Shown: piece after piece, positions 1-62,874 of the stretch
Numbering within the stretch: the first letter of the stretch is position 1
Layout of the letters: the number at the start of each line of letters is the position of its first letter
DNA from: Chlamydiota bacterium
GTDB lineage: Bacteria > Auribacterota > JACPWU01
DNA: 64,000 nt
Direction: 5' to 3'
Assembly: GCA_016178055.1 (NCBI GenBank)
Contig: JACOUC010000035.1
Location: 77,325-141,324, forward strand
Program-made: the position numbers and the translations under genes
Notes under the pieces: model-generated
Seen by the model: only the letters and a program-made list of their open reading frames with translations
Databases searched by the model: none
Told to the model about the DNA's origin: nothing

Positions 1-117
1 AACAGTTATTGCCCGCTGTACACCCATTTCATGAAGACTTGCCTTTTCTTCTAAAATACCAGCGACATGACGCAATATTTGAGCCGTCTTAGAAACAACT
101 TTTTGGACTCTTTTCAT
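1..117 (-). CDS. Hypothetical protein, 5' part only (gene runs off the window start). The ATG at 117 overlaps the stop of the upstream gene as ATGA.
   Basis: Minus-strand frame is open from the ATG at 115-117 to position 1 and reads MKRVQKVVSKTAQILRHVAGILEEKASLHEMGVQRAITV. Start/stop overlap suggests translational coupling with 114..2024. Confidence 0.4.
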   Translation of the reverse strand, partial: MKRVQKVVSKTAQILRHVAGILEEKASLHEMGVQRAITV

Positions 118-25071: not shown

Positions 25072-26112
25072 TCAATCCTCCATCTTAATCATGATACGCC
25101 CTGCATTTCCTTGTTCCAACTCTTTCAATGCTTGATTAATATCCTGAAGTCCATATTCATGCGTAATCATGCTCTTTAAGGGCAAATCTCCTGATAAAAA
25201 AAGGTTTGCGTAAAAAGGAATATCCTCATCTGTCTGGGCAGAGCCACCCCAAGAACCCAATATTTTTTTACCCTTAATTAAATCCATGGGATCAATCAAA
25301 ATCAAATCACCTTGAGATAAGTTACCCGCAATGACACAGATTCCTCCCTGGTCTCTTACAGATCGGAAAGCAGCCTCCATCGCCTGTTTTTTCCCCGAAG
25401 CTTCTATCGCATAATCCACACCCAATCCATTCGTCATATTGAGGATTTCAATTGCCACATCGCAAGACATTCCATTAATCGTGTGAGTTGCACCCAATTG
25501 TTTCGCTTGTTTTAATTTATGATCAAAAATATCGACCGCAATAATTTTATGAGCCTTAACAAAAGAAGCCGCCATCAAAGCACTCAAGCCCACTCCTCCA
25601 ATACCAAAAATAGCAACGCTCTCTCCCTCAGAAATCTTGGCCACTTTCAAAACGATTCCTGCACCCGTGGGAATCGCACAACCCAGAAGAGCAGCCTCTC
25701 GCAACGGCATAGAATCCAAAATAGGCGTAAGACGATTCTCGCAAGTAATGGTCCGCCTCATAAAGGTGCTAATTGCCCCAGAATTAACAGGACCTTCATC
25801 ACTCTGGTAAACCATCGAGGGGACATCCTTCCCTTTACCTTTAATCCAAGAAAGAACCACTCGATCGCCAGGTTTCACCTTCACAACATCGGAGCCCACT
25901 TCCAAAACTGTTCCAGAGCCCTCATGACCTAGGGTGTGAGGAAGAAAACGATCCGGTCCTCGTTTACCTAAAACTTCTAGAAGTTGACTGTGGCAAATAC
26001 TGCTATATGCAACATCCACAAGAACCTGTCCGGATTTAAGACTGGGTATCGTGACAGGAATAAGCTGCAGAGGTTTGCAAACTTCGAAAAGAACAGCTGC
26101 TTGGGTTTTCAT
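25072..26112 (-). CDS. Zinc-binding MDR-family alcohol dehydrogenase.
   Basis: CHSQL...GHEGSGTV zinc-ligand motif and a GxGxxG NAD region. Confidence 0.85.
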   Translation of the reverse strand: MKTQAAVLFEVCKPLQLIPVTIPSLKSGQVLVDVAYSSICHSQLLEVLGKRGPDRFLPHTLGHEGSGTVLEVGSDVVKVKPGDRVVLSWIKGKGKDVPSMVYQSDEGPVNSGAISTFMRRTITCENRLTPILDSMPLREAALLGCAIPTGAGIVLKVAKISEGESVAIFGIGGVGLSALMAASFVKAHKIIAVDIFDHKLKQAKQLGATHTINGMSCDVAIEILNMTNGLGVDYAIEASGKKQAMEAAFRSVRDQGGICVIAGNLSQGDLILIDPMDLIKGKKILGSWGGSAQTDEDIPFYANLFLSGDLPLKSMITHEYGLQDINQALKELEQGNAGRIMIKMED

Positions 26113-26194: not shown

Positions 26195-26863
26195 TTATTC
26201 CGCAATAAACCAATAATAATCGCCTGTATATCCGACTTCCTGAAAGAGTTTCTTCCAATCATTCACATGCATCATGGTTTCAGCGGTCAAAACCCATTTG
26301 TAAAGTTGTTCTTGCTCTTTTTCATTTCTCCAAGCATCCATGGTGATATAGCTGTGGCCACGGCTGACCCTCTGAATTTCTCTAAGGGCCTTCTTCAAAG
26401 GCTCAAGAGAAAGGTTGTGGATAGAATTGATAGAGATTACGAGATCAAAGCTTTTATCTGGAAAGGGTAAGCTTTCTGCACTCGCTACTTTAAGAAATGG
26501 TTTCACTGTAGGTATGGCGTGTTCAATGGCATATTCGCTCACGTCCACCCCTGCAACTTGGCATTCAGGCATGAGCTCTCTAAAATCATGCAACAAAAAT
26601 CCCTTTGCACATCCAATGTCTAAAACAGCAGCATTCTCTGGCAAACGATAATGATCGCGAAATCGTTTTGCGATATCTTTCCAACGCCCATCATATTTAT
26701 AGCCTCCATATCCCATCACACGAGGACCATCAAAAAACTCCCGACCAAATTGTTTAGCAATTCGGATAATTTCGGAAGTTTTCTCTTTGGCCCTTTGATC
26801 GTAATCACGAAGAGCTTTAGGGTGAGAATTTAAAAGATTAATTTCTGCCATCACGAAGGGCAA
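26195..26863 (-). CDS. Class I SAM-dependent methyltransferase.
   Basis: VLDIGCAKGF motif I. Confidence 0.8.
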   Translation of the reverse strand: MPFVMAEINLLNSHPKALRDYDQRAKEKTSEIIRIAKQFGREFFDGPRVMGYGGYKYDGRWKDIAKRFRDHYRLPENAAVLDIGCAKGFLLHDFRELMPECQVAGVDVSEYAIEHAIPTVKPFLKVASAESLPFPDKSFDLVISINSIHNLSLEPLKKALREIQRVSRGHSYITMDAWRNEKEQEQLYKWVLTAETMMHVNDWKKLFQEVGYTGDYYWFIAE

Positions 26864-26923
26864 TCCCTAATCCAAATAAACAATGCGCCATGGGTTCATA
26901 CCCGGTATGAACGACTTCATCAT

Positions 26924-27979
26924 TCATGACTTCTTCGCCTTTTCTACACCTTTGCTGAGCTCTTTTTCAAGCTCCTTAATCGCTGGAAAGCTTGATTTCA
27001 ATTTCTTCGGCAACGCATGCGTTAATTTATACTCTGATACCCCAATGGGTTTATGGATATCACTCATGGCATATTCTGCAACCAACTTATCCCGCCTCTT
27101 ACAAAGTAGAAGGCCGATTGTTGGGAGGTCCCCAACTTTACGCAACTGACTGTCCATCGCCTTGATATAAAAATTAAGTTTGCCAGCAAACTCCGGTTCG
27201 AAGTCCCCTGTTTTCAGTTCAACCACAACATAGCAATGCAAGCGAGTATGATAAAAAAGAAGATCTATAAAAAACTCTCGGTCCCCCACTTGAACAGGAA
27301 TTTGCCTGCCGATAAAAGCAAAACCGGCACCCAACTCCAGAAGAAAGCTCGTAAGATGATCTATGAGCTTATGTTCAAGCTCTCGCTCGCTAGAATCTGT
27401 AGACATGTTCAAAAAGTCAAAGATATAGGGATCCTTCAATGTTTGTTGAGCAAGATCGCCTTGGGGTTTAGGCAGCGTTAAATGAAAATTGCTAACGGCT
27501 TTCCCTTCCCGTTCAAAAAGACCGCTCTCTATCTGATGAACAAGAACGTTACGACTCCAATTATGCCTGATCGTGCCCTGCACGTAAAACATAGCTTCAC
27601 AGACGTCTTTGCATTTAGAGATAATGGCAATGTTATGTCCCCAGGGGATAGAGGTAATTTGGCCAACAACTTGTTGGCTAATTTGCTCTTCTTGGCTGTA
27701 AAATAAGTGCCACTGTTTGATATACTTTAAATTACTAAGTGAAAATCCTTTCATATCAGAAAATTCTGCCATCAAGTCCTTGCTGAGCCGAGGCAATAGA
27801 CCCTCTCCCCATTTTACGCTTTTTTGCCTGACAACAATATCCACGCCCATATCCCAATAAAGCTTTAACAGTTCAGTGTTTACACTGATCGCAGCTTTAA
27901 TCTGAGCACTGCGGACTCTCTTCTTAATATCCGAAAGCCAGGACTTGTATTCCTCGTCGCTCGTCAAATAATCTTTCAT
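26924..27979 (-). CDS. YhcG/DUF1016 family protein (PD-(D/E)XK nuclease-like C-terminus).
   Basis: FIDLLFYHTRLHCYVVVELKTGDFEPEFAGKLNFY matches the DUF1016 core. Flanked by ~50-bp direct repeats at 26871-26921 and 28033-28083. Confidence 0.8.
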   Translation of the reverse strand: MKDYLTSDEEYKSWLSDIKKRVRSAQIKAAISVNTELLKLYWDMGVDIVVRQKSVKWGEGLLPRLSKDLMAEFSDMKGFSLSNLKYIKQWHLFYSQEEQISQQVVGQITSIPWGHNIAIISKCKDVCEAMFYVQGTIRHNWSRNVLVHQIESGLFEREGKAVSNFHLTLPKPQGDLAQQTLKDPYIFDFLNMSTDSSERELEHKLIDHLTSFLLELGAGFAFIGRQIPVQVGDREFFIDLLFYHTRLHCYVVVELKTGDFEPEFAGKLNFYIKAMDSQLRKVGDLPTIGLLLCKRRDKLVAEYAMSDIHKPIGVSEYKLTHALPKKLKSSFPAIKELEKELSKGVEKAKKS

Positions 27980-28078
27980 ATTCTTAATGTCACAACCATC
28001 ATCGCTTTTTACGCATACAATCCAACACCGATGCCAAATAAATAATGGGCCATGGGATAATATCCTGTATGAACGACT

Positions 28079-28249
28079 TCATCGCCCATCATACCTATAG
28101 CCTCCGTATCCCATGATCCGAGGACCATCGAAAAATTCTGGTCCAAACTGTTTCGCAATTCGAATAATTTCTGGGGTCTTTTCCTTAACCCTTTGATCGT
28201 AATCCCGAAGGGTTTTAGGTTGGGAGTTTAAAAAATCAATTTCTGACAT
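28079..28249 (-). pseudogene. Remnant 5' fragment (56 codons) of the SAM methyltransferase gene, a duplicate of 26683..26863.
   Basis: Translation MSEIDFLNSQPKTLRDYDQRVKEKTPEIIRIAKQFGPEFFDGPRIMGYGGYRYDGR stops, whereas the intact gene reads MAEINLLNSHPKALRDYDQRAKEKTSEIIRIAKQFGREFFDGPRVMGYGGYKYDGRW. Confidence 0.6.
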
Positions 28250-28258
28250 TTGAAATTT

Positions 28259-30133
28259 CTATTTGACACGAGACGATTCCACAGAAAAATCTTTTAAGGA
28301 TATTTCCATGGGTTGAATCGTCATATTTTCAAGAAATTCTTTTCTTTCCAATAACGGATCTGCATCCTCATTGGGTCTCCCAAACTTCACTTGAGGAACG
28401 ACTCTTTCTTTGGAAGCAATTTCAACATTACAAAATACAGGACCTTTCGTCCTCAAAACCTCTTTAATACCATCTTCTAGTTGTTGAGTGCTAGAAAGGC
28501 AAACTGTCTTGTATCCATAAGCTTGTGCCACCTTTAAAAAATCAGGAAAAGCCAATCCTCCTTCAATAGAGGAGGCAAAATAATTTCCTTCTAACCATTG
28601 ATCCTGAGTTTGCTGAATCATGCTATAACCATGATTATTGATTAAAAAGATTTTAATGGGCAGTTGATAACGTAAAACGGTTGATAGCTCTTGGATATTC
28701 ATTTGCAAACTTCCATCTCCTGTCACACAAATTACAGATTTTTTTCCAAGCGCTAGAGAACCTCCTATGCTTGCTGGCAAAGCCCAACCCATCGCTGTAT
28801 TATTGCAATCATGATATAACCTTTGATCTGCTTTAAAATCAAATGCCTGCATCATCCAAGCTACAGCACAACCTGTATCTACAAACAAGGCGCTTCCTTT
28901 CTCGCAAGCTTGAGAAAGAGCTTTTACGAAAACATATGGATTAATTTCTTTTTGCCGATAATACTCGTCAGGACAAATAGGATACTTTTCTTTCCAGAAA
29001 GCAATTTGCTCTCTCCATGACGAGATATCACTTTTAGAGAAATTGACCATGTGCTGATTCAATTGTAATAAAAAATCCTTAGCATTTGCATGGATGAGTT
29101 GTTCTATTTTCAACCCAAACCTTTCAAATTTTTTTAATTCACTCAGATCAATATCGACAACTATTTTTTTGGCTGCCCTCGCAAAACTATAAGGAGGGCT
29201 TCCTGTGGCTTTTGTATCTAAACGCGTTCCTATCGCTAAAATTAAATCTGCATTTTGGACAGCAAAATTAGCGTATCGAGTCCCATGGGTTCCAAAGGTA
29301 CCGATTAAAAAAGGATAATCTGATTCAAAGAGATCTGCCATCGCCCATGTAGGAGCAACTGGGAAACCGAATTGCTCTACTAAATTTTTTGCTTCTTCCT
29401 CAGCTTTGGCCAAACGAACCCCCCATCCTAAAATAACCACAGGACGCTTGGCTTCTTTTAAAAGCTGCAGGCATTGATCGATATTAAAATTAGATTTTCT
29501 AGGAGCTTTTCCCTGATCCAAAACAAAAGGCTCAAGTAACGCTGGATTAATTTCCTCCCTTTGAATATTGTCGGGAATATCAATCACCACAGGTCCGGGT
29601 CGATCTGATTTTGCAATATGGCAGGCTTTTCCCAATTCATATCTTATTTTCATTGCATCGAGAATCTGTACAGCATATTTTGTGACGGATTTATAAATAC
29701 CAATCGTATCTGTTTCTTGAAAACCCATTTGTCGAACACCCGTATCTTTTTTCATTCTAAATGTCGAAACCTGACCTGTAATATAAATGACAGGTACAGA
29801 GTCATAATAGGCACAGCAAACTCCGGTCAGCATATTGGTAGCGCCAGGGCCACTTGTTGAAATGGCCGCTCCTAAATTCCCCGTAAGGCGAGAATACCCA
29901 TCAGCCGCCATGGCTCCTGCCTGTTCATGCTGAGGACAAATAAATTCAATACCTTCGGTTTCTGCAAGAGCATGAATGAGATGAAGGGAGGCGCCACCAG
30001 AAACAGCAAAAACATGGCGAATGCCCTGTTGGGCTAAAAATCTTGCGACATAATCAGAGAGCTTCATGCCAAGGCATCTCCAATTTAGATGTGATAAAAA
30101 GTGTTCCCTCACGATAACTGGTTGGCATGTCAT
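28259..30133 (-). CDS. Thiamine-diphosphate enzyme of the acetolactate-synthase/YerE family.
   Basis: N-terminal MKLSDYVARFLAQQGIRHVFAVSGGASL...GPGATN and a C-terminal ThDP-binding GDGS region. The probable start is the internal MKLSDY Met, at about 30067. Confidence 0.85.
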   Translation of the reverse strand: MTCQPVIVREHFLSHLNWRCLGMKLSDYVARFLAQQGIRHVFAVSGGASLHLIHALAETEGIEFICPQHEQAGAMAADGYSRLTGNLGAAISTSGPGATNMLTGVCCAYYDSVPVIYITGQVSTFRMKKDTGVRQMGFQETDTIGIYKSVTKYAVQILDAMKIRYELGKACHIAKSDRPGPVVIDIPDNIQREEINPALLEPFVLDQGKAPRKSNFNIDQCLQLLKEAKRPVVILGWGVRLAKAEEEAKNLVEQFGFPVAPTWAMADLFESDYPFLIGTFGTHGTRYANFAVQNADLILAIGTRLDTKATGSPPYSFARAAKKIVVDIDLSELKKFERFGLKIEQLIHANAKDFLLQLNQHMVNFSKSDISSWREQIAFWKEKYPICPDEYYRQKEINPYVFVKALSQACEKGSALFVDTGCAVAWMMQAFDFKADQRLYHDCNNTAMGWALPASIGGSLALGKKSVICVTGDGSLQMNIQELSTVLRYQLPIKIFLINNHGYSMIQQTQDQWLEGNYFASSIEGGLAFPDFLKVAQAYGYKTVCLSSTQQLEDGIKEVLRTKGPVFCNVEIASKERVVPQVKFGRPNEDADPLLERKEFLENMTIQPMEISLKDFSVESSRVK

Positions 30134-30950
30134 CTACATGGCTCACCCGTTTCCAACCCGTTTTTTGAGAAAAAAGACGAACACCCGTTTTTTGGAAATG
30201 TTCATAAATAGCCGTTGCATTGTTTGGATTACCCACTTCAATGAGACCATCTGTATTTGCCCAATGATCCCGATGGGTCCCCAACAGAACTTCTTTCTCG
30301 TGTCCTTCAATGTCTAATTTAACTAAATCAGCCCAGGAAAGAAGGGCATTCATGGCTTCAACCTTCACAGGAAATCTTTCAAGCTCGCCATAAGGATGAG
30401 CTTTCGCACCCGCCAGATGACTCCCGGTTGTATTTCCTAACACCCTCACAAATTCCATCTCTCCCGCTTGAGTCGAAACAGCTGTATTAAAGGCGTGAAT
30501 ATTCGAACAATGATTAAAGTCTAAATTTCTTTTAAAAATTTCAAAATGCTTGGGATCCGGTTCATAGGCATGCACTTCAAATCCACATTTGCTTAAGATG
30601 ATGGAATGAAGTCCAATATTGGCCCCAATATCAAGAACCCGTCGATAAGAACGACGATGCATCCAATAAAAACTAAAAATAATCAACTCATCCAGATCAA
30701 ACAAATTGAGAGAATCAACCGCGCCCATGTTATGGTAAGGAAAGGTTAAACTTCCAAAAGGTTTAAAATCTACAGGAACTCCATCATTATTTAGAAAAAG
30801 ATTTTCTATTTCACGACGCGCAATCTTCTTGAAAAAAGAATACAACGATGAGCCGGGTGCATGAAGAGCGCTCAAAGAAGGCAATGTTAACAAGAGTTCT
30901 TCAAGAACGAAAGTCGAAGAGACATTGACCGCCTGTAGACTAGGAGCCAT
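30054..30950 (-). CDS. FkbM family methyltransferase.
   Basis: VLDIGANIGLHSI...YEPDP. Confidence 0.8.
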   Translation of the reverse strand: MAPSLQAVNVSSTFVLEELLLTLPSLSALHAPGSSLYSFFKKIARREIENLFLNNDGVPVDFKPFGSLTFPYHNMGAVDSLNLFDLDELIIFSFYWMHRRSYRRVLDIGANIGLHSIILSKCGFEVHAYEPDPKHFEIFKRNLDFNHCSNIHAFNTAVSTQAGEMEFVRVLGNTTGSHLAGAKAHPYGELERFPVKVEAMNALLSWADLVKLDIEGHEKEVLLGTHRDHWANTDGLIEVGNPNNATAIYEHFQKTGVRLFSQKTGWKRVSHVDDMPTSYREGTLFITSKLEMPWHEAL

Positions 30951-31890
30951 TTTTCAAAACCCAATCATTGCCAAACCTTCTTAATTTATACATATGCGGC
31001 TCTTCTGTTAGTTTCTTGGCCAAAATCTCATTCCCCCACGGATCATAAACCACACTAAAATTGCGGCCGCTGACTACTTCCCGAGGAGAATCCACCAACC
31101 AATCACAACAAGCGACGATCCTTTCGAAAGAAGTACACTCATCGCTCGCCAATTTATCAAGAGTCTTCTGGTAACTAGGACCTGCTCGTACACCCGCTTT
31201 CAAAGTTGATTCATGGATCTTGGTTTTAACCCAACCAGGTCCCACAATGACAAAACGGCAATCTGGAATCTCAGCATCCAAAAGTTCACACATCTTGATC
31301 AAAGCAATTTTAGAAACCGTGTACGCCGAATAATTGACAGTCGCATTGTTGGTCCCACCCCCTGCAAAAAAAAGAACGCAAGAACCTAATTTCGAATCGA
31401 CTCGACGGGTTGGAAGAAGTTCGCGAACGATTCTCATCGGACCTGTAAAATTGATCTTCAAAGATTCTTCCCATTCATCAAAATTGCACTCCTGAAAAGC
31501 ACTTACAGGATCTTGAGTCCCGGGACATAGGACCAACGCATCCCATTGGGGACAAAGGGCTCGAAGATTCACACAAGCATCCAATATCGATCTCTGATTT
31601 GAGAGATCGCAACGACCCATTTTCATGCCCCAACTGCTTAACTCCTCAACAGCCTGAGATTCTGTCCGATAGGTTCCAAACAAATTCCAGCCCCTCTCTA
31701 TCCATGATCTGCCGATAGCACTTCCAATATCACTGGACGCAGATATGATAATAGCTGAACTTCCAACACTCTCTCCTCTCACAAACATATTAAACTCCCT
31801 ATCAACCAAAGAGTTAAAAGGCTGATCGGTGTTTCCCCCCATTGACATGAAAACACGAGCCAGTAATCCATGCAGATTTATCAGAAGCAA
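30940..31890 (-). CDS. Atypical SDR-like NAD(P)-dependent oxidoreductase.
   Basis: AIIISASSDIGSAIG glycine-rich motif. The start is probably internal. Confidence 0.55.
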   Translation of the reverse strand: MLLINLHGLLARVFMSMGGNTDQPFNSLVDREFNMFVRGESVGSSAIIISASSDIGSAIGRSWIERGWNLFGTYRTESQAVEELSSWGMKMGRCDLSNQRSILDACVNLRALCPQWDALVLCPGTQDPVSAFQECNFDEWEESLKINFTGPMRIVRELLPTRRVDSKLGSCVLFFAGGGTNNATVNYSAYTVSKIALIKMCELLDAEIPDCRFVIVGPGWVKTKIHESTLKAGVRAGPSYQKTLDKLASDECTSFERIVACCDWLVDSPREVVSGRNFSVVYDPWGNEILAKKLTEEPHMYKLRRFGNDWVLKNGS

Positions 31891-32626
31891 GGAATGTAAC
31901 TAAACCCGCTACGTCGTCCCCTTGACCTATTCTACCCAAGGGAATTCTGGCCGCACCCTGAGCATCTATCTTGATTCTAGCATTGATGAGAGAAATTTCT
32001 TCCTCGTAAGCAACCTGTTTGGCTAATTGATCTCTTCCATCAGAATGCACCTGCCCCACACAAATAACATTGACCAAAACACCGTCACTTCCTAACAAAT
32101 TAGCCAAGTGCTTACTCAAATTAATCACCGCTGCCTTGCTTGCACAATAATGAGGGATTAAAAGACCAGGTTCTACCCCTGAAATGGACGCTATATTAAT
32201 AATACGTCCCACTTTTGATTTTTTGAGCCACGGCAAGGCCTGCTGTACAAAGTGAACCACTGTCATCACATTCAGATCAAATGCGGATATCCAATCATCA
32301 CGGTTTAAGTCATAAAATTTTGTTATTTTATTTACCCCACCAACGTTATTAACAAGAATATCTAGCCTGCCGAATCTCTGAATCGCATCCCCAACAACTC
32401 GCTGCACAGATTGAGGATCCGTAGCATCAGCAGCCACAGCAAAAGCTTTTCCTGGAAGTCTTTCAAATTCTTGCACAGTCGCCTCGAGCACGACAGGATC
32501 ACGAGCTGTCAAAACAACATCTGCACCTTCCTGAGCAAGGGACTGAGCAATAGCTTTACCAATGCCTTTGCTGCTTCCCGTGATAAGAGCCACTCGACCC
32601 GTCAAAGTTAAGTGAGTGTTTTCCAT
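31814..32626 (-). CDS. SDR family oxidoreductase.
   Basis: VALITGSSKGIGKAIA, NNVGG and YCASKAAV. Confidence 0.85.
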   Translation of the reverse strand: MENTHLTLTGRVALITGSSKGIGKAIAQSLAQEGADVVLTARDPVVLEATVQEFERLPGKAFAVAADATDPQSVQRVVGDAIQRFGRLDILVNNVGGVNKITKFYDLNRDDWISAFDLNVMTVVHFVQQALPWLKKSKVGRIINIASISGVEPGLLIPHYCASKAAVINLSKHLANLLGSDGVLVNVICVGQVHSDGRDQLAKQVAYEEEISLINARIKIDAQGAARIPLGRIGQGDDVAGLVTFLASDKSAWITGSCFHVNGGKHRSAF

Positions 32627-32684
32627 CCACCTTCCTTAAGTGTTGAACTGTCACAAATTGAAGCCCACGAAAGCTGAAAGGGCA

Positions 32685-34748
32685 TCAACCCAAGGGGAAA
32701 GACCCAAGGCTTGCCACAATATCTTCCGCAGCTGGAACAACTTCTCGAAACAATCGTTTGATAGGTGATACTCGCATCAAAATTCGACTCATTCCATCTA
32801 ACGATGTGCCGTACTGTTTAACATATCCTTCTATCAAAGTCTTTTGCTTATCCGTGTGCGCAAAGAGAAAGTTGCAAGGTTTATCCAGTAAATAAAGAGA
32901 GGGATCCACATTGTAGTTTTGTTCCCCAATGGCTGAAAAATCAAAATGAAGAAGACGATTAAACCGTCTTTCTGCATTAGTCAAATCTACTTTTCTAAGC
33001 AAGCCATATTCTTTCAATTCTTCCAAATACAGTTCTTTAATCTCATCCAGACGCTCAGACTCTTTGAGCATCGTTTTCATGATCGCAAACAATGCGTTAT
33101 GCAAATCAACCTGCAAATTTAAAAATGCTACGGCCTTACCATTGGACATTTCATTGGTACTACTTTCACTGCTGAAAAAGGCATCCATGTTTTCACGCAC
33201 ATAAGCTGCTAGATCTTCTCGCCTATCCCAGAGGCGGCTGATTGTCTCGGCACGAAACGAATCATACAAATGAATCAACCCCTCAGTGAAAGACCGCCGC
33301 GTGTTGTGAAAACGCATGATGAAATCAAACCAGGGAAAGCCTGCCCATTTACATAACCCCCATAACTCGGCAAAAGTCCTCCCATTGTGCACAATTTCTA
33401 CCGTGAGATCTAATTCTCGACATTCAATATACTCTTCAAAACTCAAACTATGAGTCTGAATACAAATTTCTTCAGATTCAACAGAGCTGAAAATTTCATC
33501 TTGAAAATCATATTTACCAAAAGACCGCGGCATGATGCGATATTTCGTCTTCATCGCATATTGGTTTCGAGTTTTGGGAGTGTTAAGTTCAGTTTGAGGA
33601 AGCATAATAAGCTGATACATTCTCAAAACTCCTAGATTGGCTTCTACCACATCGCGTAGAGAGTGCATGTGTTTTTCCATCGTATCCCCTGGCAAACCTA
33701 AAATAATTTCAGAATAAGTGTCCGCACTCGTTTTATTAGCCTGCTGAGCCATGGTACTTAGGGCATCCAGAGAAATATTAGATCGCTGAATATTGCTGAG
33801 CACCGTTTGATCCGTAGATTGTAACGATGCAGCAATATTCAGCGCACCATTGAGCATAGATGCAACTTCGATCACGTGTTCCTTCCGGTTCTTTCCAGTT
33901 GAGACAACCACTCGCTGTGGCCAACCATATTTATCCTGGATAGAGGCAATGATGCCTGCCTTTGCTTTGTCCTCTTTATACATTCCAAAATTAGCATCTG
34001 TAAGGTATAAATCAGGGACACTCCCAACACGCTGCGCAATGTACTCTAGCTCATCCTTTAAATCAATTCTTTGTGCAACTTTAGAATAATAGGATGACCC
34101 TTCAGAACAAAACGTACAAGTAAAGGGGCAACCCCGTGTTGTGTGAACCATGGGTGATAAAACTTGATCGAAAAACTTATCCATCAACCCCATCAAGTAT
34201 GGAGAGGACAATTCCCCCAAATCTTTGATTCTGGGAAGCATTTCTCCAATCATCATCTTGCCATTAGACCAATAATGACAGTTGGGAAGTAGCCTCTGAT
34301 CCCGTTTTAAGGCGAGTACATCATAATTTACCTCGTGCAATGCTTTAACCAGCTCAATCATTGCCAATTCACCTTCCTTGACAACATAAAAGTCAAGAAG
34401 CGGAAACCGATTCCAAAATGCCAGCATTTCTTCTTCTGTCAGACCATAATTAGGACCTCCAAACACAATCACGGTATCTGGAAAACTTTTCTTTATGCGG
34501 CTTGCATATTGATAAGACAAGTCACAGTTCCACGAGTAGTTTGTAAAACCAGCGATTCGAGGCATACGCCGCCGAAGAGAACGAGACAAATCTTGAGGAT
34601 ATTTAAAAACTTCCACCTCGACAATCTCAGGCAGGCTTCTTAGCAATTGCGCCCCAATCAAACCACCCGCCAAGGGATGTACATTGGATGAAATAACCGA
34701 TCCAGTATGCGTAAGATCTGATAAATAGATTAGAGTCTTTGCAATCAT
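32685..34748 (-). CDS. B12-binding radical SAM enzyme (class B), second copy.
   Basis: TTRGCPFTCTFC CxxxCxxC motif after an N-terminal B12-binding-like domain. 687 aa. Confidence 0.8.
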   Translation of the reverse strand: MIAKTLIYLSDLTHTGSVISSNVHPLAGGLIGAQLLRSLPEIVEVEVFKYPQDLSRSLRRRMPRIAGFTNYSWNCDLSYQYASRIKKSFPDTVIVFGGPNYGLTEEEMLAFWNRFPLLDFYVVKEGELAMIELVKALHEVNYDVLALKRDQRLLPNCHYWSNGKMMIGEMLPRIKDLGELSSPYLMGLMDKFFDQVLSPMVHTTRGCPFTCTFCSEGSSYYSKVAQRIDLKDELEYIAQRVGSVPDLYLTDANFGMYKEDKAKAGIIASIQDKYGWPQRVVVSTGKNRKEHVIEVASMLNGALNIAASLQSTDQTVLSNIQRSNISLDALSTMAQQANKTSADTYSEIILGLPGDTMEKHMHSLRDVVEANLGVLRMYQLIMLPQTELNTPKTRNQYAMKTKYRIMPRSFGKYDFQDEIFSSVESEEICIQTHSLSFEEYIECRELDLTVEIVHNGRTFAELWGLCKWAGFPWFDFIMRFHNTRRSFTEGLIHLYDSFRAETISRLWDRREDLAAYVRENMDAFFSSESSTNEMSNGKAVAFLNLQVDLHNALFAIMKTMLKESERLDEIKELYLEELKEYGLLRKVDLTNAERRFNRLLHFDFSAIGEQNYNVDPSLYLLDKPCNFLFAHTDKQKTLIEGYVKQYGTSLDGMSRILMRVSPIKRLFREVVPAAEDIVASLGSFPLG

Positions 34749-34760
34749 AAGAATTTCTCC

Positions 34761-35603
34761 TTAAATTGGGACCGAGCTCTCATCATGTCTCTTCTGAAAA
34801 TGAAGCATCAAACTAAATTGTTCCTGCACAGACATTCCACCATCCATCACAATACATTGACCAGAAATATAGGATGCGTTGGGTGAACAAAGAAACAGCG
34901 CCGCATGAGCAACATCATCAGAACGCCCTGGCTGTCCCATCGGATGGCAAAATTCAACCAGTTCTCGATAACCTTGATTGTCATCTTGCCTATAACGATC
35001 AAGATCTTCATCCCGAATAATAACGCCAGGCAATAATGCATTAACTCGAACACCTTCTGCACCTCCTCGAACAGCAAAATAGCGAGTCATCTGAGTCAAT
35101 CCCACTTTCGCAATTTGATAGACAGGAGAAACTTCACGTGCAGAAAGCAGTCCTGTGATTGAACTGATGTTAACAATGCTTCCCCCGCCATTTTTTGCCA
35201 TTGTAGAAATAGCTGCCTGAGACGCAAAGAACGCAGCCCGAAGATTAACAGCCATTTCGAGATCCCAACTTTCTTCATCATCCGATTTGTCCCGAGAACG
35301 GACAGCCCTTGCATTATTCACCAAAACATCAATCTTTCCATAACTCCTGACAATCTGACGAATCATCTCTTGTGGTGTCCCCTTCTCACTTAAATCAACT
35401 TTCAAAAACGTAGAAGAGAGCTTTCGATCACGTAAATCTGTTACGGTTGTATGTCCCTCTTTATCATTGAGATCGCAGACAATAACCATCGCGCCTTTTT
35501 GAGCAAATGCATTAACAATGTTTTTACCAATACCTCGTGCGCCTCCTGTAACAGCAACTATTTTCCCTTCAAAAAGAGATAGAGAATCAGGCGTGATGGA
35601 CAT
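34761..35603 (-). CDS. SDR family oxidoreductase.
   Basis: VAVTGGARGIGKNI, NNAR and YQIAKVGL. Confidence 0.85.
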   Translation of the reverse strand: MSITPDSLSLFEGKIVAVTGGARGIGKNIVNAFAQKGAMVIVCDLNDKEGHTTVTDLRDRKLSSTFLKVDLSEKGTPQEMIRQIVRSYGKIDVLVNNARAVRSRDKSDDEESWDLEMAVNLRAAFFASQAAISTMAKNGGGSIVNISSITGLLSAREVSPVYQIAKVGLTQMTRYFAVRGGAEGVRVNALLPGVIIRDEDLDRYRQDDNQGYRELVEFCHPMGQPGRSDDVAHAALFLCSPNASYISGQCIVMDGGMSVQEQFSLMLHFQKRHDESSVPI

Positions 35604-35811
35604 ATTCCAAGGGCTCCTTTACAATTTGATCCCAATATTTTTCTATCCAGGCAACAACACCTCCAACACCTTCATTCAAAGAGATTTTATTTGACCATCC
35701 TAATGTCTTTCTCGCCTTCGTCGAATCAATCACATAAGCTTGATCTTGTCCCAAGCGCTCCGGTGCAACAACCGTAACATCCTCAAAAGATTTTCCTAAA
35801 ACAAATGTCAC
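35587..35811 (-). pseudogene. Orphan C-terminal fragment of an NDP-sugar 4,6-dehydratase/epimerase.
   Basis: ...VAPERLGQDQAYVIDSTKARKTLGWSNKISLNEGV... is a dehydratase C-terminus. A second copy of the same 3' end is found at 38272..38424. Confidence 0.55.
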
Positions 35812-36620
35812 GCAACCATTCGTGGGGGCTTATTTCCAGGAACAAGAAGCCTATTATTTTTTTTTAAAACCTTCAATTCATCAATGATAGGCGCCCAATA
35901 GATACGATCCCTTCTTCGTGATTCTTCTATTTCCAATGCCATTTCTTGAGAAGCCTCTTTAAGATGTACCGCTTTTCTATGATCCTGTAGCAATGCTTGT
36001 AAACACAGAGATAAGCATTTTCTAGAAAGATGTGCACCTATTGTTTTAGCTGTTTCATCCGACTGAAGGTAATCAAGTATATCCTCAACCTCAAAACTAT
36101 TTTTTAATATCCATTTCCAGTCATTCATTTTCAATTTTCTTTCAGAAAGATTCCTGGATTCGATTCGAACAAGATTTGAAATGATCGGGTAGTCTTCCAA
36201 ACGTCTCGTTTTTTTTATTTCCACCAAATCTCTTATTGCAACTACAGGAATTTTGCCCCAATCTGTCATTGGGTATTTTACACGCTTGAAAGAATCATCA
36301 TAATCCCCAACCCGAGGGGCTACTCCCATAACATCCAAAAACCAAAAAGGAATATTTTTGTCTTCATCTGGAATCTGAAAATGAAAACCATGCCCTTGAG
36401 AGATCCATTTCATTGAAATGGGCGGCGTTAATTTGTATATCACTGCACCCACACTTCCAAGCACCTTTAGAAATCTGTTCCAGTTCTCTTTCACTGGTTG
36501 AACCCACAGATCAATATCTTCTGAAAAGGTGGCGGCTCCATAAATCACAGAAGCCTGCCCGCTAATCAACATATAAGAAACGCCTGAAATATTAAGGTCT
36601 TGGAAAAATCTTTTTATCAT
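35808..36620 (-). CDS. Nucleotidyltransferase-like hypothetical protein (paralog family A/B/C, with 47300..48082 and 53349..53939).
   Basis: ISGQASVIYGAATFSEDIDLWV resembles a minimal NTase G[GS]...D.D motif. IPVVAIRDLVEIKKTRRLEDYPI is shared with 47300..48082. Confidence 0.5.
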   Translation of the reverse strand: MIKRFFQDLNISGVSYMLISGQASVIYGAATFSEDIDLWVQPVKENWNRFLKVLGSVGAVIYKLTPPISMKWISQGHGFHFQIPDEDKNIPFWFLDVMGVAPRVGDYDDSFKRVKYPMTDWGKIPVVAIRDLVEIKKTRRLEDYPIISNLVRIESRNLSERKLKMNDWKWILKNSFEVEDILDYLQSDETAKTIGAHLSRKCLSLCLQALLQDHRKAVHLKEASQEMALEIEESRRRDRIYWAPIIDELKVLKKNNRLLVPGNKPPRMVA

Positions 36621-36894
36621 GGATTTCCTCTATGTTTTTGAGTCTTAGGCGAAGCGCACAAGAACGGCGAAGCCTTCCTCGAGCCGTCATTTTCTGCCAA
36701 GCAGTTCTCTGAAATGTCCCAATAAGCGATTCATTAAGGTATATCATTTTTCTCATGTTTTGAATTACTCGTCCCTGCTTTAATTTACGAGACAGTGTTT
36801 CGTGAATTGAAGCAATTCTGGATAACACCCAAAGGTTTAAGACGACTCTTATCCACCGCCACTCCTTTTCGGCTTCTTATCCCGTCAAGACCGA

Positions 36895-37077
36895 TCAAAG
36901 TGCTTCATGAATGATGGGGTCCATTGACTTACTAAGTTTCGCCAGCATCCAAAGGTCTTTAGAAGTGGCGACCGAATTAACGCGAATGTTTCCAAATTCC
37001 AATGTTTCGGACAGCAGTTGGGTTCTTAAGAAGAAAATATATTTGGCACGGTCATAGGGCTGTTTAAAATCCATCAA
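36895..37077 (-). CDS. Small hypothetical ORF with an ATGA overlap to the YhcG stop.
   Basis: 60-aa ORF only. Weak. Confidence 0.25.
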   Translation of the reverse strand: MMDFKQPYDRAKYIFFLRTQLLSETLEFGNIRVNSVATSKDLWMLAKLSKSMDPIIHEAL

Positions 37078-38108
37078 TTTTTCATCTCCTCTAGAAGCTG
37101 GCTTTTCAGTTCTTTTTCAGGAGGTAAAATTTTCTTAAGATCTGATGGAATTTTATTTGTTAAATGATATTGAGACACACCCATAGGGTTCTTAACACTT
37201 CGAAGGGCATATTCTACAACGATATTTTTCTTCTCGGCGCAAAGGATAATACCAATGGAAGGATTTTCATCTTTGAAACGCACTTTATCATTCAATAAAT
37301 GAAGATAAAAATCCATTTTCCCTGCATATTCAGGCTGAAATTTTCCTGTTTTCAGCTCAATGGCAACAAGGCATTTGAGCTTTCGGTTAAAGAAAAGCAA
37401 ATCTATGAAATATTCTTCCCCGTCTATCTCAAGCCGGTATTGATTACCGATAAATGAAAACCCGGCACCAAGCTCAAGAATAAAATGTTTCATTTTTTCA
37501 ATAAGCCGTTTTTCAAGCTCCCGCTCCACAAAAGGTCTGGTTATCCCAAGAAAATCAAGGTTGTAGACGCTTTTAAGTGATTCATCGGCCTGTTCTGCCA
37601 AATATGCTGGTAAAACTTTCTCGTAATTGTGTTGTTTTTTCTTCAAGTGGAGTCGATAGGCATCAGCTTTGATTTGATTCAAAAGAACATTTCTTGACCA
37701 TCCTAATTTGGATGATTCGTTAATATAATATTCCCGTTCTTTGAGATCCTTAATTTTCTGCATAATAAGAATATTATGACCCCATGGAATTTCTGGCACA
37801 AGCTGTGCCAGTTTTACATCATCCTTGTATTCAAGATAAAACATTCGCATCCGCCATAGATTATCCGGTGAAAAGCCTTCCAAACTTGGATACTCACGGT
37901 TAAGGTCATGGGATAATTGTTCAACAACCCTTTGCCCCCATTTATATTTTTCCTGGCGCTCAACAATGCTCTTGCCAATATCCCAGTATAGTTTAATAAG
38001 ATCTTTATTAATCGAGCGTGCGGAACCAATGCGGGCAGAAACAATGCGTGATTTGATTTCATGCAGGAATTGACCATAGGCTTTTGAAGTGATCTCGCCA
38101 GATTTCAT
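37074..38108 (-). CDS. YhcG/DUF1016 family protein, second copy.
   Basis: FIDLLFFNRKLKCLVAIELKTGKFQPEYAGKMDFY. About 45% identical to 26924..27979. Confidence 0.8.
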   Translation of the reverse strand: MKSGEITSKAYGQFLHEIKSRIVSARIGSARSINKDLIKLYWDIGKSIVERQEKYKWGQRVVEQLSHDLNREYPSLEGFSPDNLWRMRMFYLEYKDDVKLAQLVPEIPWGHNILIMQKIKDLKEREYYINESSKLGWSRNVLLNQIKADAYRLHLKKKQHNYEKVLPAYLAEQADESLKSVYNLDFLGITRPFVERELEKRLIEKMKHFILELGAGFSFIGNQYRLEIDGEEYFIDLLFFNRKLKCLVAIELKTGKFQPEYAGKMDFYLHLLNDKVRFKDENPSIGIILCAEKKNIVVEYALRSVKNPMGVSQYHLTNKIPSDLKKILPPEKELKSQLLEEMKN

Positions 38109-38271
38109 TCAAATACTCCTTGATTTCCCATAAATGCGAAGGTACATTCGTCCTTCACCCCCAGATGTTTCGTCCAGCTAATTTCTTCAACCAGTGGTTG
38201 GAGATTTGCGTTTTTTTGACATGCATCATCTCCTGCTTCAGACACATCACTCATAATCAGATTTTTGAAAT

Positions 38272-38940
38272 TAGGGCTTGTGAACATAATCCAAAGGCTC
38301 CTTCGTAACTTGATCCCAAAATTGATCAATCCAATTCACAACCCCTTTAAGACCTTCTTCGAGAGAAATTCTTGAAGACCACCCTAAAGTTTTCCTCACT
38401 TTTGTCGAATCAATCACATAAGCTTTATCTTGTCCCAAAGGCAGCGTAGGGAGTCGAGGGATTCATGGGAGAAGTCTCTGTCACATTCCCCTCACAGGTT
38501 CCATAAACCTCGGGAGAAGAAATATGTACATATCGCTTCAAATATTTCTTATCTTTGAGATGATGAATTAATTGCGCCAAGGCCACGGTATTGGTCTGAA
38601 ACCAATGATGAGGATTTTCCCAACTTGGAGCCACTTCGCTTTGCGCTGCAAAATTAACGATGTATTCTGGCTGAAACTGATCCAAAGTTTCTAAAATACG
38701 CGACATGTCTTTATTAAAATCCAATTGATGAAATTTAAAATTCCCATTTACAGAGTGGCGTTTATAGGGCAAAAAAAGCTCCGTCTTTTCTGGAGAACGG
38801 CTCGCCCCCATCACTTCGAAACGCCCTTCCTCTAAAAGCAAATCTATAAAATCACTTCCAGAGAAAGAATTGCTTCCAAGGACTGCAACCTTTTGTCTTC
38901 TGTGTTCTGTCTTCTGTATTCTGTCTTCTGTATTCTGCAT
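38272..38940 (-). pseudogene. NDP-sugar 4,6-dehydratase gene with a large internal deletion and frameshift.
   Basis: The N-terminal 171 codons (VLGSNSFSGSDFIDLL...PYAA) stop at 38425. The C-terminal ~45 codons (LGQDKAYVIDSTKVRKTLGW...) continue in another frame, and about 130 central residues are absent. Confidence 0.6.
38893..38940. repeat. Imperfect 7-bp (CTGTNTT) / 14-bp tandem repeat, ~3 x 14 bp, at the 5' end of the dehydratase pseudogene.
   Basis: ttgtcttctgtgtt ctgtcttctgtatt ctgtcttctgtatt ctgcat read directly from the sequence. Confidence 0.6.
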
Positions 38941-49651: not shown

Positions 49652-49786
49652 TTTTATGCCCTCCTAAACCAATTGTATTGAACATGAAAATGGGGAGGAG
49701 AATGATCATTGAAGTACATACAAATAACCATCCCAAGAAACCTGCTTATTTCTGGCATCTCATACCCTCTTCTATAATTTTATTTT

Positions 49787-49919: not shown

Positions 49920-50004
49920 TTTTTATTTTAATAAAACAATCCCTGTTTTCACCAAGTTTCGCCTTTGTCCATTCATGCTATTGATCCTGAGCACTCGCCT
50001 ATCC

Positions 50005-62774: not shown

Positions 62775-62874
62775 AAAATGAGCCTCACTCCCATATCAAA
62801 GGCTATCATAAAAACAGATTCATTTCAATTCCCTGAATGATATTGCTACTCAGGTATTGGGAGTCGCTCAAAGA

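What the first reader, a model, noticed from the sequence alone, without database searches (positions are those of the whole stretch)
26650..28258. YhcG/DUF1016 gene inserted with ~50-bp flanking direct repeats and a duplicated methyltransferase 5' end
The YhcG gene (26924..27979) is bracketed by direct repeats B (26871-26921) and B' (28033-28083), each containing a short palindrome. Beyond B' lies a 170-bp duplicate (28083..28249) of the first 56 codons of the SAM-methyltransferase gene that sits on the other side. The duplicate ends in a stop, and the complete methyltransferase with its own upstream spacer is retained. This looks like an integrating module that carries a replacement 5' end for its target gene and leaves the displaced original 5' end as a remnant.
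Basis: seen in the sequence. Interest (0 to 1): 0.65.

Follow-up and report, generated by a model that had tools for sequence, protein, structure and literature searches.

The report
YhcG gene flanked by gene-fragment scars
A horizontally acquired YhcG nuclease gene sits inside a sugar-modification operon of a Chlamydiae genome, and the "repeats" around it are leftover ends of two neighbouring methyltransferase genes, so this is a recombination scar and not the attachment sites of a self-integrating element.

Summary
A 170-nt pair (26682-26851 / 28080-28249, 81%) and a 61-nt pair (26861-26921 / 28023-28083, 82%) bracket an intact YhcG/DUF1016 gene.

The inner repeats B and B' are not att sites. 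Both are the last 24-30 codons of a second class I methyltransferase, here called Z, which is intact in a related Chlamydiae MAG and in many other genomes. B runs straight into the start of the intact 218-aa methyltransferase (MT218), as at a normal operon junction.

A' is the first 56 codons of a second, once-functional MT218 allele. It is the normal partner of the upstream ThDP enzyme, because [FkbM or Z]-ThDP-MT218-ADH is conserved across phyla. A belongs with the body of the intact gene: it is 95% identical to the relative's gene, the body is 90-92%, and A' is 82%.

Differences between the copies fall mainly at third codon positions. The copies therefore come from two functional alleles and are not an in-situ duplication.

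The best explanation is a mosaic joint made by illegitimate, microhomology-mediated recombination or deletion between related glycan-gene modules, with a horizontally mobile YhcG gene caught in it.

A second YhcG locus in the window and one Omnitrophota locus show the same divergent duplication of the upstream gene's 3' end. I rate this a new member of a known kind, of modest interest.

The parts
28259..30133 (-). ThDP-dependent enzyme (acetolactate-synthase-like, 624 aa). It is the upstream member of the conserved module [FkbM or Z]-ThDP-MT218-ADH.
   Evidence: Pfam TPP_enzyme_N/M/C. NCBIfam matches are below the equivalog cut-offs. Synteny in L003, L005, L007, L009, L010, L020, L030 and L033, and in L041 and L080, whose ThDP gene is cut by the contig end.
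28079..28249 (-). A': the first 56 codons plus TGA of a second, divergent MT218 allele. It is a pseudogene stump lying 9 nt after the ThDP stop, at a native ThDP/MT218 junction.
   Evidence: 81% nt and 82% aa identity to A. Differences by codon position are 6/3/23, p = 9e-6. L009 aligns across the ThDP-A' junction. It is unique in the protein database.
28009..28083 (-). B': the last 24 codons plus TAA of a Z-type class I methyltransferase (..[24 protein letters not shown]). It is fused out of frame to A' at a GATG microhomology.
   Evidence: Translation and comparison with the relative's 233-aa methyltransferase, which ends ..[26 protein letters not shown]... blastn 90% to L002 3853-3893. Hits to the 3' ends of Z genes in L004, L028, L037 and L067.
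27980..28008 (-). A 29-nt spacer between the Z' stop codon and the YhcG start codon.
   Evidence: Read from the sequence. It has no homology to the region upstream of the relative's YhcG.
26924..27979 (-). Intact YhcG/DUF1016 PD-(D/E)XK nuclease-family gene (351 aa). It is a PADLOC defence candidate (PDC-S02) and has been acquired horizontally.
   Evidence: Pfam PF17761 + PF06250. PADLOC PDC-S02, E = 9e-149. 84% nt identity to the relative's copy with differences 46/18/100 by codon position. Homologues 72-82% identical at the protein level occur in Omnitrophota, Planctomycetes and Nitrospirae, in unrelated contexts.
26838..26928 (-). B: the last ~29 codons plus TAA of another Z allele (..[29 protein letters not shown]). 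Its stop overlaps the MT218 start by 14 nt, as at a native Z/MT218 operon junction. It is joined to the YhcG stop codon at an ATGA microhomology. It holds the 19-nt palindrome 26894-26912.
   Evidence: Translation. blastn 85% to L002 3846-3892. L004 aligns continuously across Z 3' end-MT218 5' end, window 26927..26601. Junction read.
26195..26851 (-). Intact MT218, a class I SAM-dependent methyltransferase of 218 aa. Its first 170 nt are repeat A (26682-26851).
   Evidence: Pfam Methyltransf_11/25/31. One colinear 89% nt block with the relative's MT218-ADH, running from the start codon to just past the ADH stop. A is 95% and the body 90-92% identical to the relative.
25072..26112 (-). Zinc-type alcohol dehydrogenase (ADH), the conserved downstream partner of MT218.
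   Evidence: Pfam ADH_N and ADH_zinc_N. Synteny.
38269..38940 (-). Second locus, left side: an NAD-epimerase/dehydratase pseudogene. It consists of the N-terminal 171 aa (38425..38940), an internal deletion of about 100 codons with a frameshift, and then the last 55 codons (38438..38274).
   Evidence: Pfam on the 171-aa ORF covers model positions 3-155 of 332. Translations.
37074..38108 (-). Second locus: YhcG2, a second intact DUF1016 gene (344 aa, 41% aa identity to the first).
   Evidence: tblastn, Pfam, PADLOC.
35587..35754 (-). Second locus, right side: a displaced 3' end (last 55 codons) of another epimerase allele, 77% nt identical to 38281-38438. Its stop overlaps the start of the next gene (SDR, 34761..35603).
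   Evidence: the repeat finder D1, blastn and translations. Codon-position differences 12/7/22, p = 0.006.

Best explanation
The segment is a recombination joint inside a polysaccharide/sugar-modification operon of a Chlamydiae MAG, with a horizontally acquired YhcG gene caught in it. Three pieces of different ancestry are joined.

1. FkbM-ThDP-MT218', cut after codon 56 (A').
2. The last 24 codons of a Z-type methyltransferase, a 29-nt spacer, and YhcG (B'-YhcG).
3. The last ~29 codons of another Z allele running directly into MT218-ADH (B-A...).

The ThDP|A' and B|A junctions are ordinary operon junctions found in other genomes. This is shown.

The A'|B' and YhcG|B junctions are novel, out-of-frame joins. 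They sit at 4-nt microhomologies (GATG and ATGA) in an ATGA-rich stretch of Z. This is read from the sequence.

Inferred history:
- DNA carrying YhcG entered downstream of Z together with the donor's own, divergent copy of the Z 3' end. One end used homology within Z. The other end was an illegitimate join just upstream of the next gene. This displaced the resident Z tail (B), which survives because it holds the ribosome-binding region and start-codon overlap of MT218.
- A second illegitimate recombination, or a deletion, then fused the ThDP-linked MT218' at codon 56 to the Z' tail. This removed the redundant rest of MT218' and the body of Z'.

YhcG is now read in the operon's direction. It is probably co-transcribed and is under purifying selection. 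Its own role, a candidate defence nuclease, is inferred from family membership only.
For: - B and B' are Z 3' ends: translations; blastn and tblastn to the relative and to five or more other genomes.
- Native junctions: [FkbM or Z]-ThDP-MT218-ADH in L003, L005, L007, L009, L010, L020, L030 and L033; L041 and L080 show the same order up to a contig end. L009 aligns across ThDP|A' and L004 across B|A. Z sits next to MT218 in L004 and L008.
- Two alleles, not an in-situ duplication: third-codon-position excess for A/A' (23 of 32 differences, p = 9e-6) and B/B' (7 of 11, p = 0.04). A' is still closest to the Chlamydiae MT218 (84% aa, against at most 71% for any other).
- A is native to the intact gene: 95% (A) and 90-92% (body) to the relative's uninterrupted MT218; A' is 82%.
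- YhcG moves as a single gene. Homology with the relative is limited to the ORF plus 3 and 7 nt. The closest homologues lie in a type I R-M operon, conjugative or integrative elements, next to an RHS gene, or between housekeeping genes.
- No machinery or structure of a mobile element.
- The pattern recurs. YhcG2 in this window and YhcG in L101 are each bracketed by divergent copies (77% and 84-86%) of the 3' end of the upstream gene. Both pairs show third-position excess. The right-hand copy overlaps or abuts the next gene.
- Background rate: 9 of 296 random 1-kb segments in comparable loci have flanking repeats of 50 nt or more.
Against: - No donor with an intact Z'-YhcG arrangement, and no intact MT218' allele, was found. 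The order and number of events is therefore inferred.
- Two coincidences are not fully explained by random illegitimate joins. B and B' begin within 8-9 nt of each other in Z. An independent MT218 5' stump in a Syntrophales MAG (L004, 93% identical to its intact copy) ends within about 5 nt of the window's break, at codon 56-58.
- The enrichment of flanking repeats at YhcG loci is weak: 3 of about 20 against 3%, Fisher p = 0.03, and two of the three are from one genome.
- The YhcG|B junction is seen in one assembly only.
Confidence: 0.68

Rival explanations
1. Site-specific integrative element, or its decayed remnant (a CIME-like element of the e14 / phage 21-icd type). An element carrying YhcG integrated into the 3' end of Z at a core within B. 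It supplied a substitute 3' end (B') and displaced the original (B). The integrase and the rest of the element were later deleted, or they act in trans.
For: - The left copy lies next to the cargo and the right copy is contiguous with the next gene, as expected for elements that target gene 3' ends.
- A 17-nt identical block lies at the 5' edge of B and B', followed by diverged sequence.
- The same layout is seen at YhcG2 and in L101.
- In L092 a 75% (aa) identical YhcG lies at the edge of an island that carries an integrase and an excisionase-like HTH_17 gene.
Against: - There is no recombinase between or near the repeats.
- The repeat starts at the three loci share no motif.
- No att-like repeat brackets the L092 island.
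- The 17-mer occurs nowhere else in the window, and B-like sequence elsewhere occurs only as the ordinary 3' end of Z genes.
- B and B' have no conserved structure.
- This reading does not explain A/A'.
Confidence: 0.12
2. Nuclease-driven, one-ended homing. YhcG, or another site-specific nuclease, cuts a site near the 3' end of a conserved gene. The break is repaired by copying from a YhcG-bearing homologue, with homology on the upstream side only. The far end is closed by microhomology joining, which leaves the recipient's own 3' end as a displaced remnant.
For: - YhcG belongs to the PD-(D/E)XK nuclease family and is intact.
- It sits as a solo ORF between conserved operon genes.
- The left copy is donor-like and divergent, and the right copy begins close to the same position.
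- This reading would explain why B and B' start within 9 nt of each other, and why MT218 breaks recur at codon 56-58 in the window and in L004.
Against: - No nuclease activity or specificity is known for this family. The literature treats it as uncharacterised cargo.
- Repeat starts at the three loci share no sequence motif.
- At the second locus the right copy appears, from reading its translation, to extend further upstream than the left copy, so no common cut site is needed there.
- L004 has no YhcG nearby.
- Most YhcG loci have no flanking duplication.
Confidence: 0.1
3. A small integrating module (B'-YhcG-B-A) targets the 5' part of the methyltransferase gene. It brings a replacement 5' end (A) and leaves the original 5' end (A') behind.
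For: - The layout has a stump, then the insert, then a complete gene.
- A parallel case exists in L004, where an insert ending in Z-MT218(1-57) follows a stump that ends at codon 57.
Against: - A and the MT218 body have the same ancestry. Both are 90-95% identical to the relative's gene, which has no insert, and there is no switch point at codon 56.
- The longest identical run between A and A' is 16 nt, which is poor substrate for a crossover.
- B and B' are remnants of another gene.
- There is no recombinase.
Confidence: 0.05
4. Assembly chimera. The MAG contig joins two strains or loci through the repeated methyltransferase sequence.
For: - The source is a metagenome-assembled genome.
- The independent Logan contig stops inside YhcG at window position 27257.
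Against: - The repeats are only 81-88% identical with identical runs of 17 nt or less, too poor to mislead an assembler.
- The independent assembly reproduces ThDP-A'-B'-YhcG exactly.
- Composition is uniform across the region.
- The same layout is seen at a second locus and in another phylum.
Confidence: 0.05

Closest known systems
Gene remnants at recombination joints of mosaic polysaccharide (O-antigen / capsule) gene clusters (from my own knowledge of that literature; not checked in papers here)
   Same: A tightly packed, one-directional sugar-modification operon built from gene-sized blocks shared with distant taxa. Truncated pseudogene ends mark the block boundaries. The shared block with the relative (MT218-ADH) ends at gene boundaries.
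   Different: Here the scar holds a defence-type nuclease gene, not an IS element. The remnants occur as divergent pairs on either side of it, and the same layout recurs at a second YhcG locus.
Homology-facilitated illegitimate recombination (one homologous anchor plus a microhomology join), as described for natural transformation in Acinetobacter and Streptococcus pneumoniae (own knowledge)
   Same: Foreign DNA enters next to a homologous gene. The far junction lies at a 3-8-nt microhomology. When the join falls inside the anchor gene, part of that gene ends up duplicated, as donor copy plus recipient copy.
   Different: Nothing here shows transformation or RecA dependence. The homologous crossover itself is no longer visible at the focal locus, because the body of Z is gone.
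Prophages and elements that integrate into the 3' end of a protein gene and carry a substitute end (e14 and phage 21 in E. coli icd) (own knowledge)
   Same: A divergent duplicate of the last tens of codons of the target gene lies on each side of the insert. The copy contiguous with the downstream DNA is the displaced original.
   Different: There is no integrase, no att core shared among copies and no element body. The insert is a single 1.06-kb ORF. The outer pair (A/A') is a 5' end whose intact copy is native.
Free-standing homing endonuclease genes of phages (seg/mob genes of T4-like phages) (own knowledge)
   Same: A solo nuclease-family ORF lies between conserved genes in the direction of transcription and is present or absent among related modules.
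   Different: Homing gives clean insertion with co-conversion and no flanking duplications. Cleavage activity is unknown for YhcG.
YhcG/DUF1016 as cargo of mobile elements and type I R-M operons
   Same: The same family (Pfam PF06250/PF17761; PADLOC PDC-S02). Homologues found here lie in an HsdM operon, a conjugative element and an integrase-bearing island. PMC4316617 describes DUF1016 piggybacking on Rickettsia RAGE elements and cites it in enterococcal and clostridial ICEs.
   Different: In this window the gene lies inside biosynthetic operons, twice, with no mobile-element genes around it.

Membership tests
YhcG / DUF1016 PD-(D/E)XK nuclease family | Both Pfam domains, DUF1016_N (PF17761) and YhcG_C (PF06250), above the gathering score and over their full length | tested here: met
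   137 and 213 bits, profile coverage 1-137/137 and 1-156/157. The same holds for YhcG2.
YhcG / DUF1016 PD-(D/E)XK nuclease family | Catalytic D...(D/E)xK motif | tested here: inconclusive
   The sequence reads ..FFIDLLFYHTRLHCYVVVELK.., which fits D-x(n)-E-x-K. I assigned it by eye and did not check it against a structure.
PADLOC defence candidate PDC-S02 | Match to the PDC-S02 HMMs | tested here: met
   E = 8.6e-149, full length.
PADLOC defence candidate PDC-S02 | Protection against phage | not testable with these tools
   This needs an experiment. The papers read here give no function.
Site-specific integrative element with a substitute gene end (e14 / phage 21 type, or CIME) | Tyrosine or serine recombinase gene in or beside the element | tested here: not met
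   Only YhcG lies between the repeats. The neighbouring genes are biosynthetic enzymes.
Site-specific integrative element with a substitute gene end (e14 / phage 21 type, or CIME) | Identical core shared by attL and attR and recurring at other copies | tested here: inconclusive
   A 17-nt identical block lies at the 5' edge of B and B'. It is ordinary conserved coding sequence of Z (..DEVVHT..). It is absent from other YhcG loci. The three duplicated loci share no motif.
Site-specific integrative element with a substitute gene end (e14 / phage 21 type, or CIME) | The copy joined to the gene body is foreign and the displaced copy is the original | tested here: not met
   This fails for A/A'. 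A shares ancestry with the gene body, 95% and 90-92% to the insert-free relative. For B/B' it cannot be tested, because the body of Z is deleted.
Transposon / IS / MITE | Terminal inverted repeats, a short identical target-site duplication, and a transposase | tested here: not met
   No inverted repeat brackets the insert; the best pair is 23 nt at 74%. The direct repeats are 61 and 170 nt and only 81-82% identical. No transposase domain was found.
Integron gene cassette | attC-type imperfect palindrome at the cassette 3' end | tested here: not met
   B and B' fold no better than shuffles (z = -1.1 and -1.5) and their palindromes differ.
Free-standing homing endonuclease gene | Nuclease ORF present or absent at a fixed site between conserved genes | tested here: inconclusive
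   Canonical ThDP-MT218 modules lack it. No second genome has YhcG at this same site.
Free-standing homing endonuclease gene | Site-specific cleavage of the empty allele | not testable with these tools
   This needs biochemistry.
Homology-facilitated illegitimate recombination product | Novel junction at a short microhomology | tested here: met
   A'|B' reads GGGC-GATG-AAGTC, shared by MT218 (CGnTGG) and Z (TGATGAAG). YhcG|B reads AAGTC-ATGA-ATGATG. I read these by eye.
Homology-facilitated illegitimate recombination product | Donor in which the cargo lies next to a homologue of the anchor gene | not tested
   No Z'-YhcG donor was found.

The most novel reading that the evidence does not exclude
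YhcG/DUF1016 genes are self-propagating, homing-like cassettes. The nuclease cuts a site in the 3' part of a conserved operon gene. Repair copies YhcG from a homologous operon together with the donor's version of that 3' end, and leaves the recipient's own end as a displaced remnant. This would explain three things: the divergent 3'-end duplications at three YhcG loci, the near-coincident starts of B and B', and the recurrent break at MT218 codon 56-58.
Probability: 0.1. Interest if true: 0.75.

Novelty: new member of a known kind. Interest (0 to 1): 0.33.

Why it matters
On its own this is an ordinary recombination scar in a mosaic sugar-gene cluster. It corrects a tempting reading, namely that flanking repeats plus a duplicated gene end indicate an integrating element.

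Its value is as a worked example. Codon-position analysis of the repeat copies, together with synteny in distant genomes, separates an att-site or target duplication from two alleles joined by recombination.

The recurrence of the layout is a small lead on how single defence-type genes get into operons without any mobility genes. The layout is: donor copy of the upstream gene's 3' end, then YhcG, then the displaced resident 3' end overlapping the next gene's start. It appears at two YhcG loci here and one in Omnitrophota.

If the pattern held broadly, it would make the spread of solo PD-(D/E)XK genes testable.

Tried and rejected
- Exact-sequence look-ups of the window's YhcG and MT218 found nothing. 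The source was identified instead through 100% hits labelled Chlamydiae MAG.
- Composition profile: no GC or skew anomaly over the insert.
- Promoter and terminator scan: at background level.
- Folding of B and B': not significant.
- Rfam on the whole window: no hit.
- The metagenome scan with YhcG gave only 9 loci. None had flanking repeats except short ones of 31 nt or less.
- I looked for att repeats around the integrase-bearing YhcG island L092/L093 and found none.
- Proteins carried on several contigs (P0013, P0014) were fetched in the hope of seeing one YhcG in several contexts. All copies were in the same context.
- I considered Campbell-type single crossover of a 1.4-kb circle, because the A/A' spacing of 1398 nt is close to the 1400-nt spacing in L101. 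I rejected it for A/A'. Neither copy is a hybrid, A matches the gene body, and the identical runs are 16 nt or less.
- I considered a common cut site at the second locus. I rejected it because the right copy, read in translation, appears to extend further upstream than the left copy, so the repeat edge is set by the left-hand deletion alone. This was read by eye and not tested by alignment.
- The tail after the L004 stump looks like a scrambled Z 3' end (a 9-nt exact match to the end of Z1), but this is not solid.
- The L099 "flanking repeats" are copies of a short palindromic element, not gene ends.
Full report
**What is in the sequence**

All genes in this part of the window run on the minus strand. 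In the direction of transcription the order is:
- FkbM-type methyltransferase (30950..30054)
- ThDP-dependent enzyme (30133..28259)
- a 56-codon ORF, A' (28249..28079)
- B' (28083..28009)
- a 29-nt spacer
- YhcG (27979..26924)
- B (26928..26838)
- a 218-aa class I SAM methyltransferase, here called MT218 (26851..26195), whose first 170 nt are repeat A
- a zinc alcohol dehydrogenase, ADH (26112..25072)

The two repeat pairs are real.
- A/A' is 170 nt at 81% identity.
- B/B' is 61 nt at 82% identity, or 50 nt at 88%.
- In a self-comparison of the whole 64-kb window only five repeat pairs reach E < 1e-6, and three of them flank the two YhcG genes.
- The short palindromes differ between B and B', and neither repeat folds better than shuffled sequence.
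- There is no compositional break, and promoter and terminator signals are at background level.

**Source and the one close relative**

Proteins 100% identical to YhcG and MT218 are recorded from a Chlamydiae MAG on a 205,580-bp contig.

An independent Logan assembly of SRR12113417 matches window 38249..27257 at 100%. The ThDP-A'-B'-YhcG side is therefore not an assembly artefact.

A second Chlamydiae MAG (GCA_016178005.1, loci L001/L002) shares two things with the window:
- a colinear MT218-ADH block at 89% nt identity, running exactly from the MT218 start codon to just past the ADH stop;
- a YhcG orthologue at 84% nt identity.

In that genome the order is YfhO-MT218-ADH-GT2-Fic-(YhcG fragment)-(M4 peptidase fragment)-YhcG-emfourin. 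YhcG is therefore in a different place, and its homology to the window stops 3 nt before the start codon and 7 nt after the stop.

**What B and B' are**

Read in one frame:
- B' gives ..[25 protein letters not shown]
- B gives ..[29 protein letters not shown]

Both match the C-terminus of a different class I methyltransferase, here called Z. The relative has an intact 233-aa copy that ends ..[33 protein letters not shown]. B' is 90% and B is 85% identical to it in DNA.

The same C-terminal motif ends Z genes in some twenty other loci. B and B' hit the 3' ends of Z genes in L004, L025, L028, L037 and L067.

No intact Z is left in the window.

The stop codon of B overlaps the MT218 start by 14 nt. 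L004 aligns continuously from the Z 3' end into MT218 across this point. B-A is therefore a normal operon junction, and B is the part of Z that carries the translation-initiation region of MT218.

**What A and A' are**

The genome scan with MT218, annotated with the window's proteins, shows that [FkbM or Z]-ThDP-MT218-ADH is a conserved module. It occurs in Chloroflexota, Syntrophales, Verrucomicrobiota, Nitrospirota, Omnitrophota, Planctomycetes and others: L003, L005, L007, L009, L010, L020, L030 and L033. L041 and L080 show the same order up to a contig end.

A' starts 9 nt after the ThDP stop, and L009 aligns across that junction. A' is therefore the stump of the MT218 copy that belonged to the ThDP module.

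The 32 differences between A and A' fall 6/3/23 on codon positions 1/2/3 (p = 9e-6). Sixteen codons differ synonymously and ten non-synonymously. The two copies thus diverged as parts of working genes, and the truncation is recent relative to that divergence.

A is 95% identical to the relative's MT218 5' end and the rest of the gene is 90-92% identical. A' is 82% identical to both. There is no change of ancestry at codon 56.

A' is nevertheless closest to the Chlamydiae MT218 lineage: 84% aa identity, against at most 71% for any other.

B/B' shows the same third-position bias (7 of 11 differences, p = 0.04).

**The junctions**

Two joins are new.
- A'|B' reads ..TATGATGGGC-GATG-AAGTCGTTC.. 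The four bases GATG could come from either parent: MT218 CGnTGG, or Z TGATGAAG. The join is out of frame and creates the TGA that ends the stump.
- YhcG|B reads ..AAGAAGTC-ATGA-ATGATGAAGTC.. Here ATGA is both the end of YhcG (TCA TGA; the relative has TCG TAA) and part of Z (ATG AAT GAT).

Both joins lie in the stretch ATGAATGATGAAG of Z. That stretch offers repeated ATGA/TGA microhomology, which is a plausible reason why B and B' start only 8-9 nt apart.

**YhcG itself**

- The gene is intact and matches both family domains.
- Against its orthologue it shows a purifying pattern, 46/18/100 differences by codon position.
- It matches the PADLOC defence-candidate family PDC-S02.
- Homologues 72-82% identical at the protein level occur in Omnitrophota, Planctomycetes, Nitrospirae and others.
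- Their contexts are unrelated to one another: the edge of an integrase-bearing island, between bipA and an arsenic permease-family (ArsP_1) gene, beside AbiEi and Fic genes, after an HTH gene, after an RHS gene, in a conjugative element, and inside a type I R-M operon.
- DNA homology to the window never extends beyond the ORF.
- The literature describes the family only as uncharacterised PD-(D/E)XK cargo of mobile elements.

**A second instance in the same window, and one elsewhere**

YhcG2 (38108..37074, 41% aa identity to YhcG) lies with a Fic-gene fragment (36867..36825) and an unknown 270-aa ORF. This group sits between two copies (77% nt) of the last 55 codons of an NAD-epimerase: 38438..38274 and 35754..35590.
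- The left copy is the tail of an epimerase pseudogene with an internal deletion of about 100 codons.
- The stop of the right copy overlaps the start of the next gene, an SDR.

In L101 (Omnitrophota) a YhcG 78% identical in DNA lies between two copies (84%, 226 nt) of the 3' end of an RHS-repeat gene. A third, partial copy follows the next gene.

Both pairs again show third-position excess (p = 0.006 and 9e-5).

Most other YhcG loci have no such flanks. In controls, 9 of 296 random 1-kb segments in comparable loci have flanking repeats of 50 nt or more. The enrichment is suggestive only (Fisher p = 0.03).

**Explanation**

The data fit capture of YhcG-bearing DNA by recombination between related operons.
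- One end uses homology in the gene upstream of YhcG. This is why the donor's divergent 3' end arrives with YhcG.
- The other end is an illegitimate join.
- In tightly packed operons that join is tolerated only if it falls upstream of the next gene's initiation region, which lies inside the resident gene's last codons. That is why a displaced tail remains.

At the focal locus a second illegitimate join, or a deletion, then linked the ThDP-associated MT218' at codon 56 to the Z' tail.

The steps that are shown:
- the identity of the fragments;
- the native and novel junctions;
- the two-allele origin of each pair;
- the ancestry of A;
- the single-gene mobility of YhcG.

The steps that are inferred:
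- the order of events;
- the one-sided homologous crossover;
- co-transcription.

**What remains unexplained**

In L004 (Syntrophales), ThDP is followed by a frameshifted MT218 5' stump that is 93% identical to that genome's intact copy. The stump ends at codon 57/58, within about 5 nt of the window's break. After it come an epimerase-like gene, an intact Z and the intact MT218.

This parallel, and the near-coincident starts of B and B', could be chance combined with microhomology hot spots. They could also hint at a site-directed break. The three duplicated loci share no motif at the repeat starts, so I give the nuclease-homing and decayed-integrative-element readings about 10% each.

**Verdict**

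It is wrong on mechanism: B and B' are gene remnants, A is native to the intact gene, and there is no integration module.

I rate this a new member of a known kind, a recombination scar with a horizontally acquired defence-type gene, and of modest interest.

Noticed in passing
window 34761-38940: A second YhcG gene (37074..38108) lies with a Fic-gene fragment (36825-36867) and an unknown 270-aa ORF (35808..36620). The group is bracketed by two divergent copies (77%) of the last 55 codons of an NAD-epimerase. The upstream epimerase (38425..38940) is a pseudogene with an internal deletion.
   Followed up: yes
window 49781-49928 (also 62741-62777; L002 14425-14579): A strongly self-complementary element of about 135 nt (RNA fold -63.6 kcal/mol, z = -8.1) with no Rfam match. 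An 88% identical copy sits directly upstream of the relative's YhcG gene. It may be a MITE/REP-like repeat of this Chlamydiae lineage.
   Followed up: partly
L004 8190-8363 and 10001-10170: A Syntrophales MAG has an independent MT218 5' stump after its ThDP gene. The stump is 93% identical to the intact copy, is frameshifted, and ends at codon 57/58. It is followed by an epimerase-like gene, an intact Z and the intact MT218. A HicA/HicB-like pair, judged from the ORF translations only, lies between MT218 and ADH.
   Followed up: partly
L101 2076-2301, 3476-3701, 4344-4371: An Omnitrophota contig has the 3' end of an RHS-repeat gene duplicated on either side of YhcG (84%, spacing 1400 nt). A third, partial copy follows the next gene (ORF6N), which gives an array-like layout.
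   Followed up: partly
L001 9281-9342; L001 15472-15511 and 15915-15954: The relative carries a 62-nt internal YhcG fragment after its Fic gene, 94% identical to its own YhcG and 91% to the window's. A 40-nt direct repeat brackets its PDDEXK_3 gene. That cluster holds three DUF1016 genes and one PDDEXK_3 gene among the sugar genes.
   Followed up: no
window 45378-45519 vs 6680-6821; 6257-6538 vs 93-371: A 143-nt segment is 95% identical inside two different ORFs (44544..45575 and 6278..8416). A 282-nt pair at 75% identity links the 3' ends, plus about 20 nt downstream, of two large ORFs that I take to be paralogues (6278..8416 and 114..2024).
   Followed up: no
window 27257 (end of Logan contig L102): The independent Logan contig ends inside YhcG, within the 57-nt stretch (27251-27307) that also survives as a fragment in the relative. 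This may reflect a branch in the assembly graph caused by another YhcG-like sequence or a strain variant in the sample.
   Followed up: no
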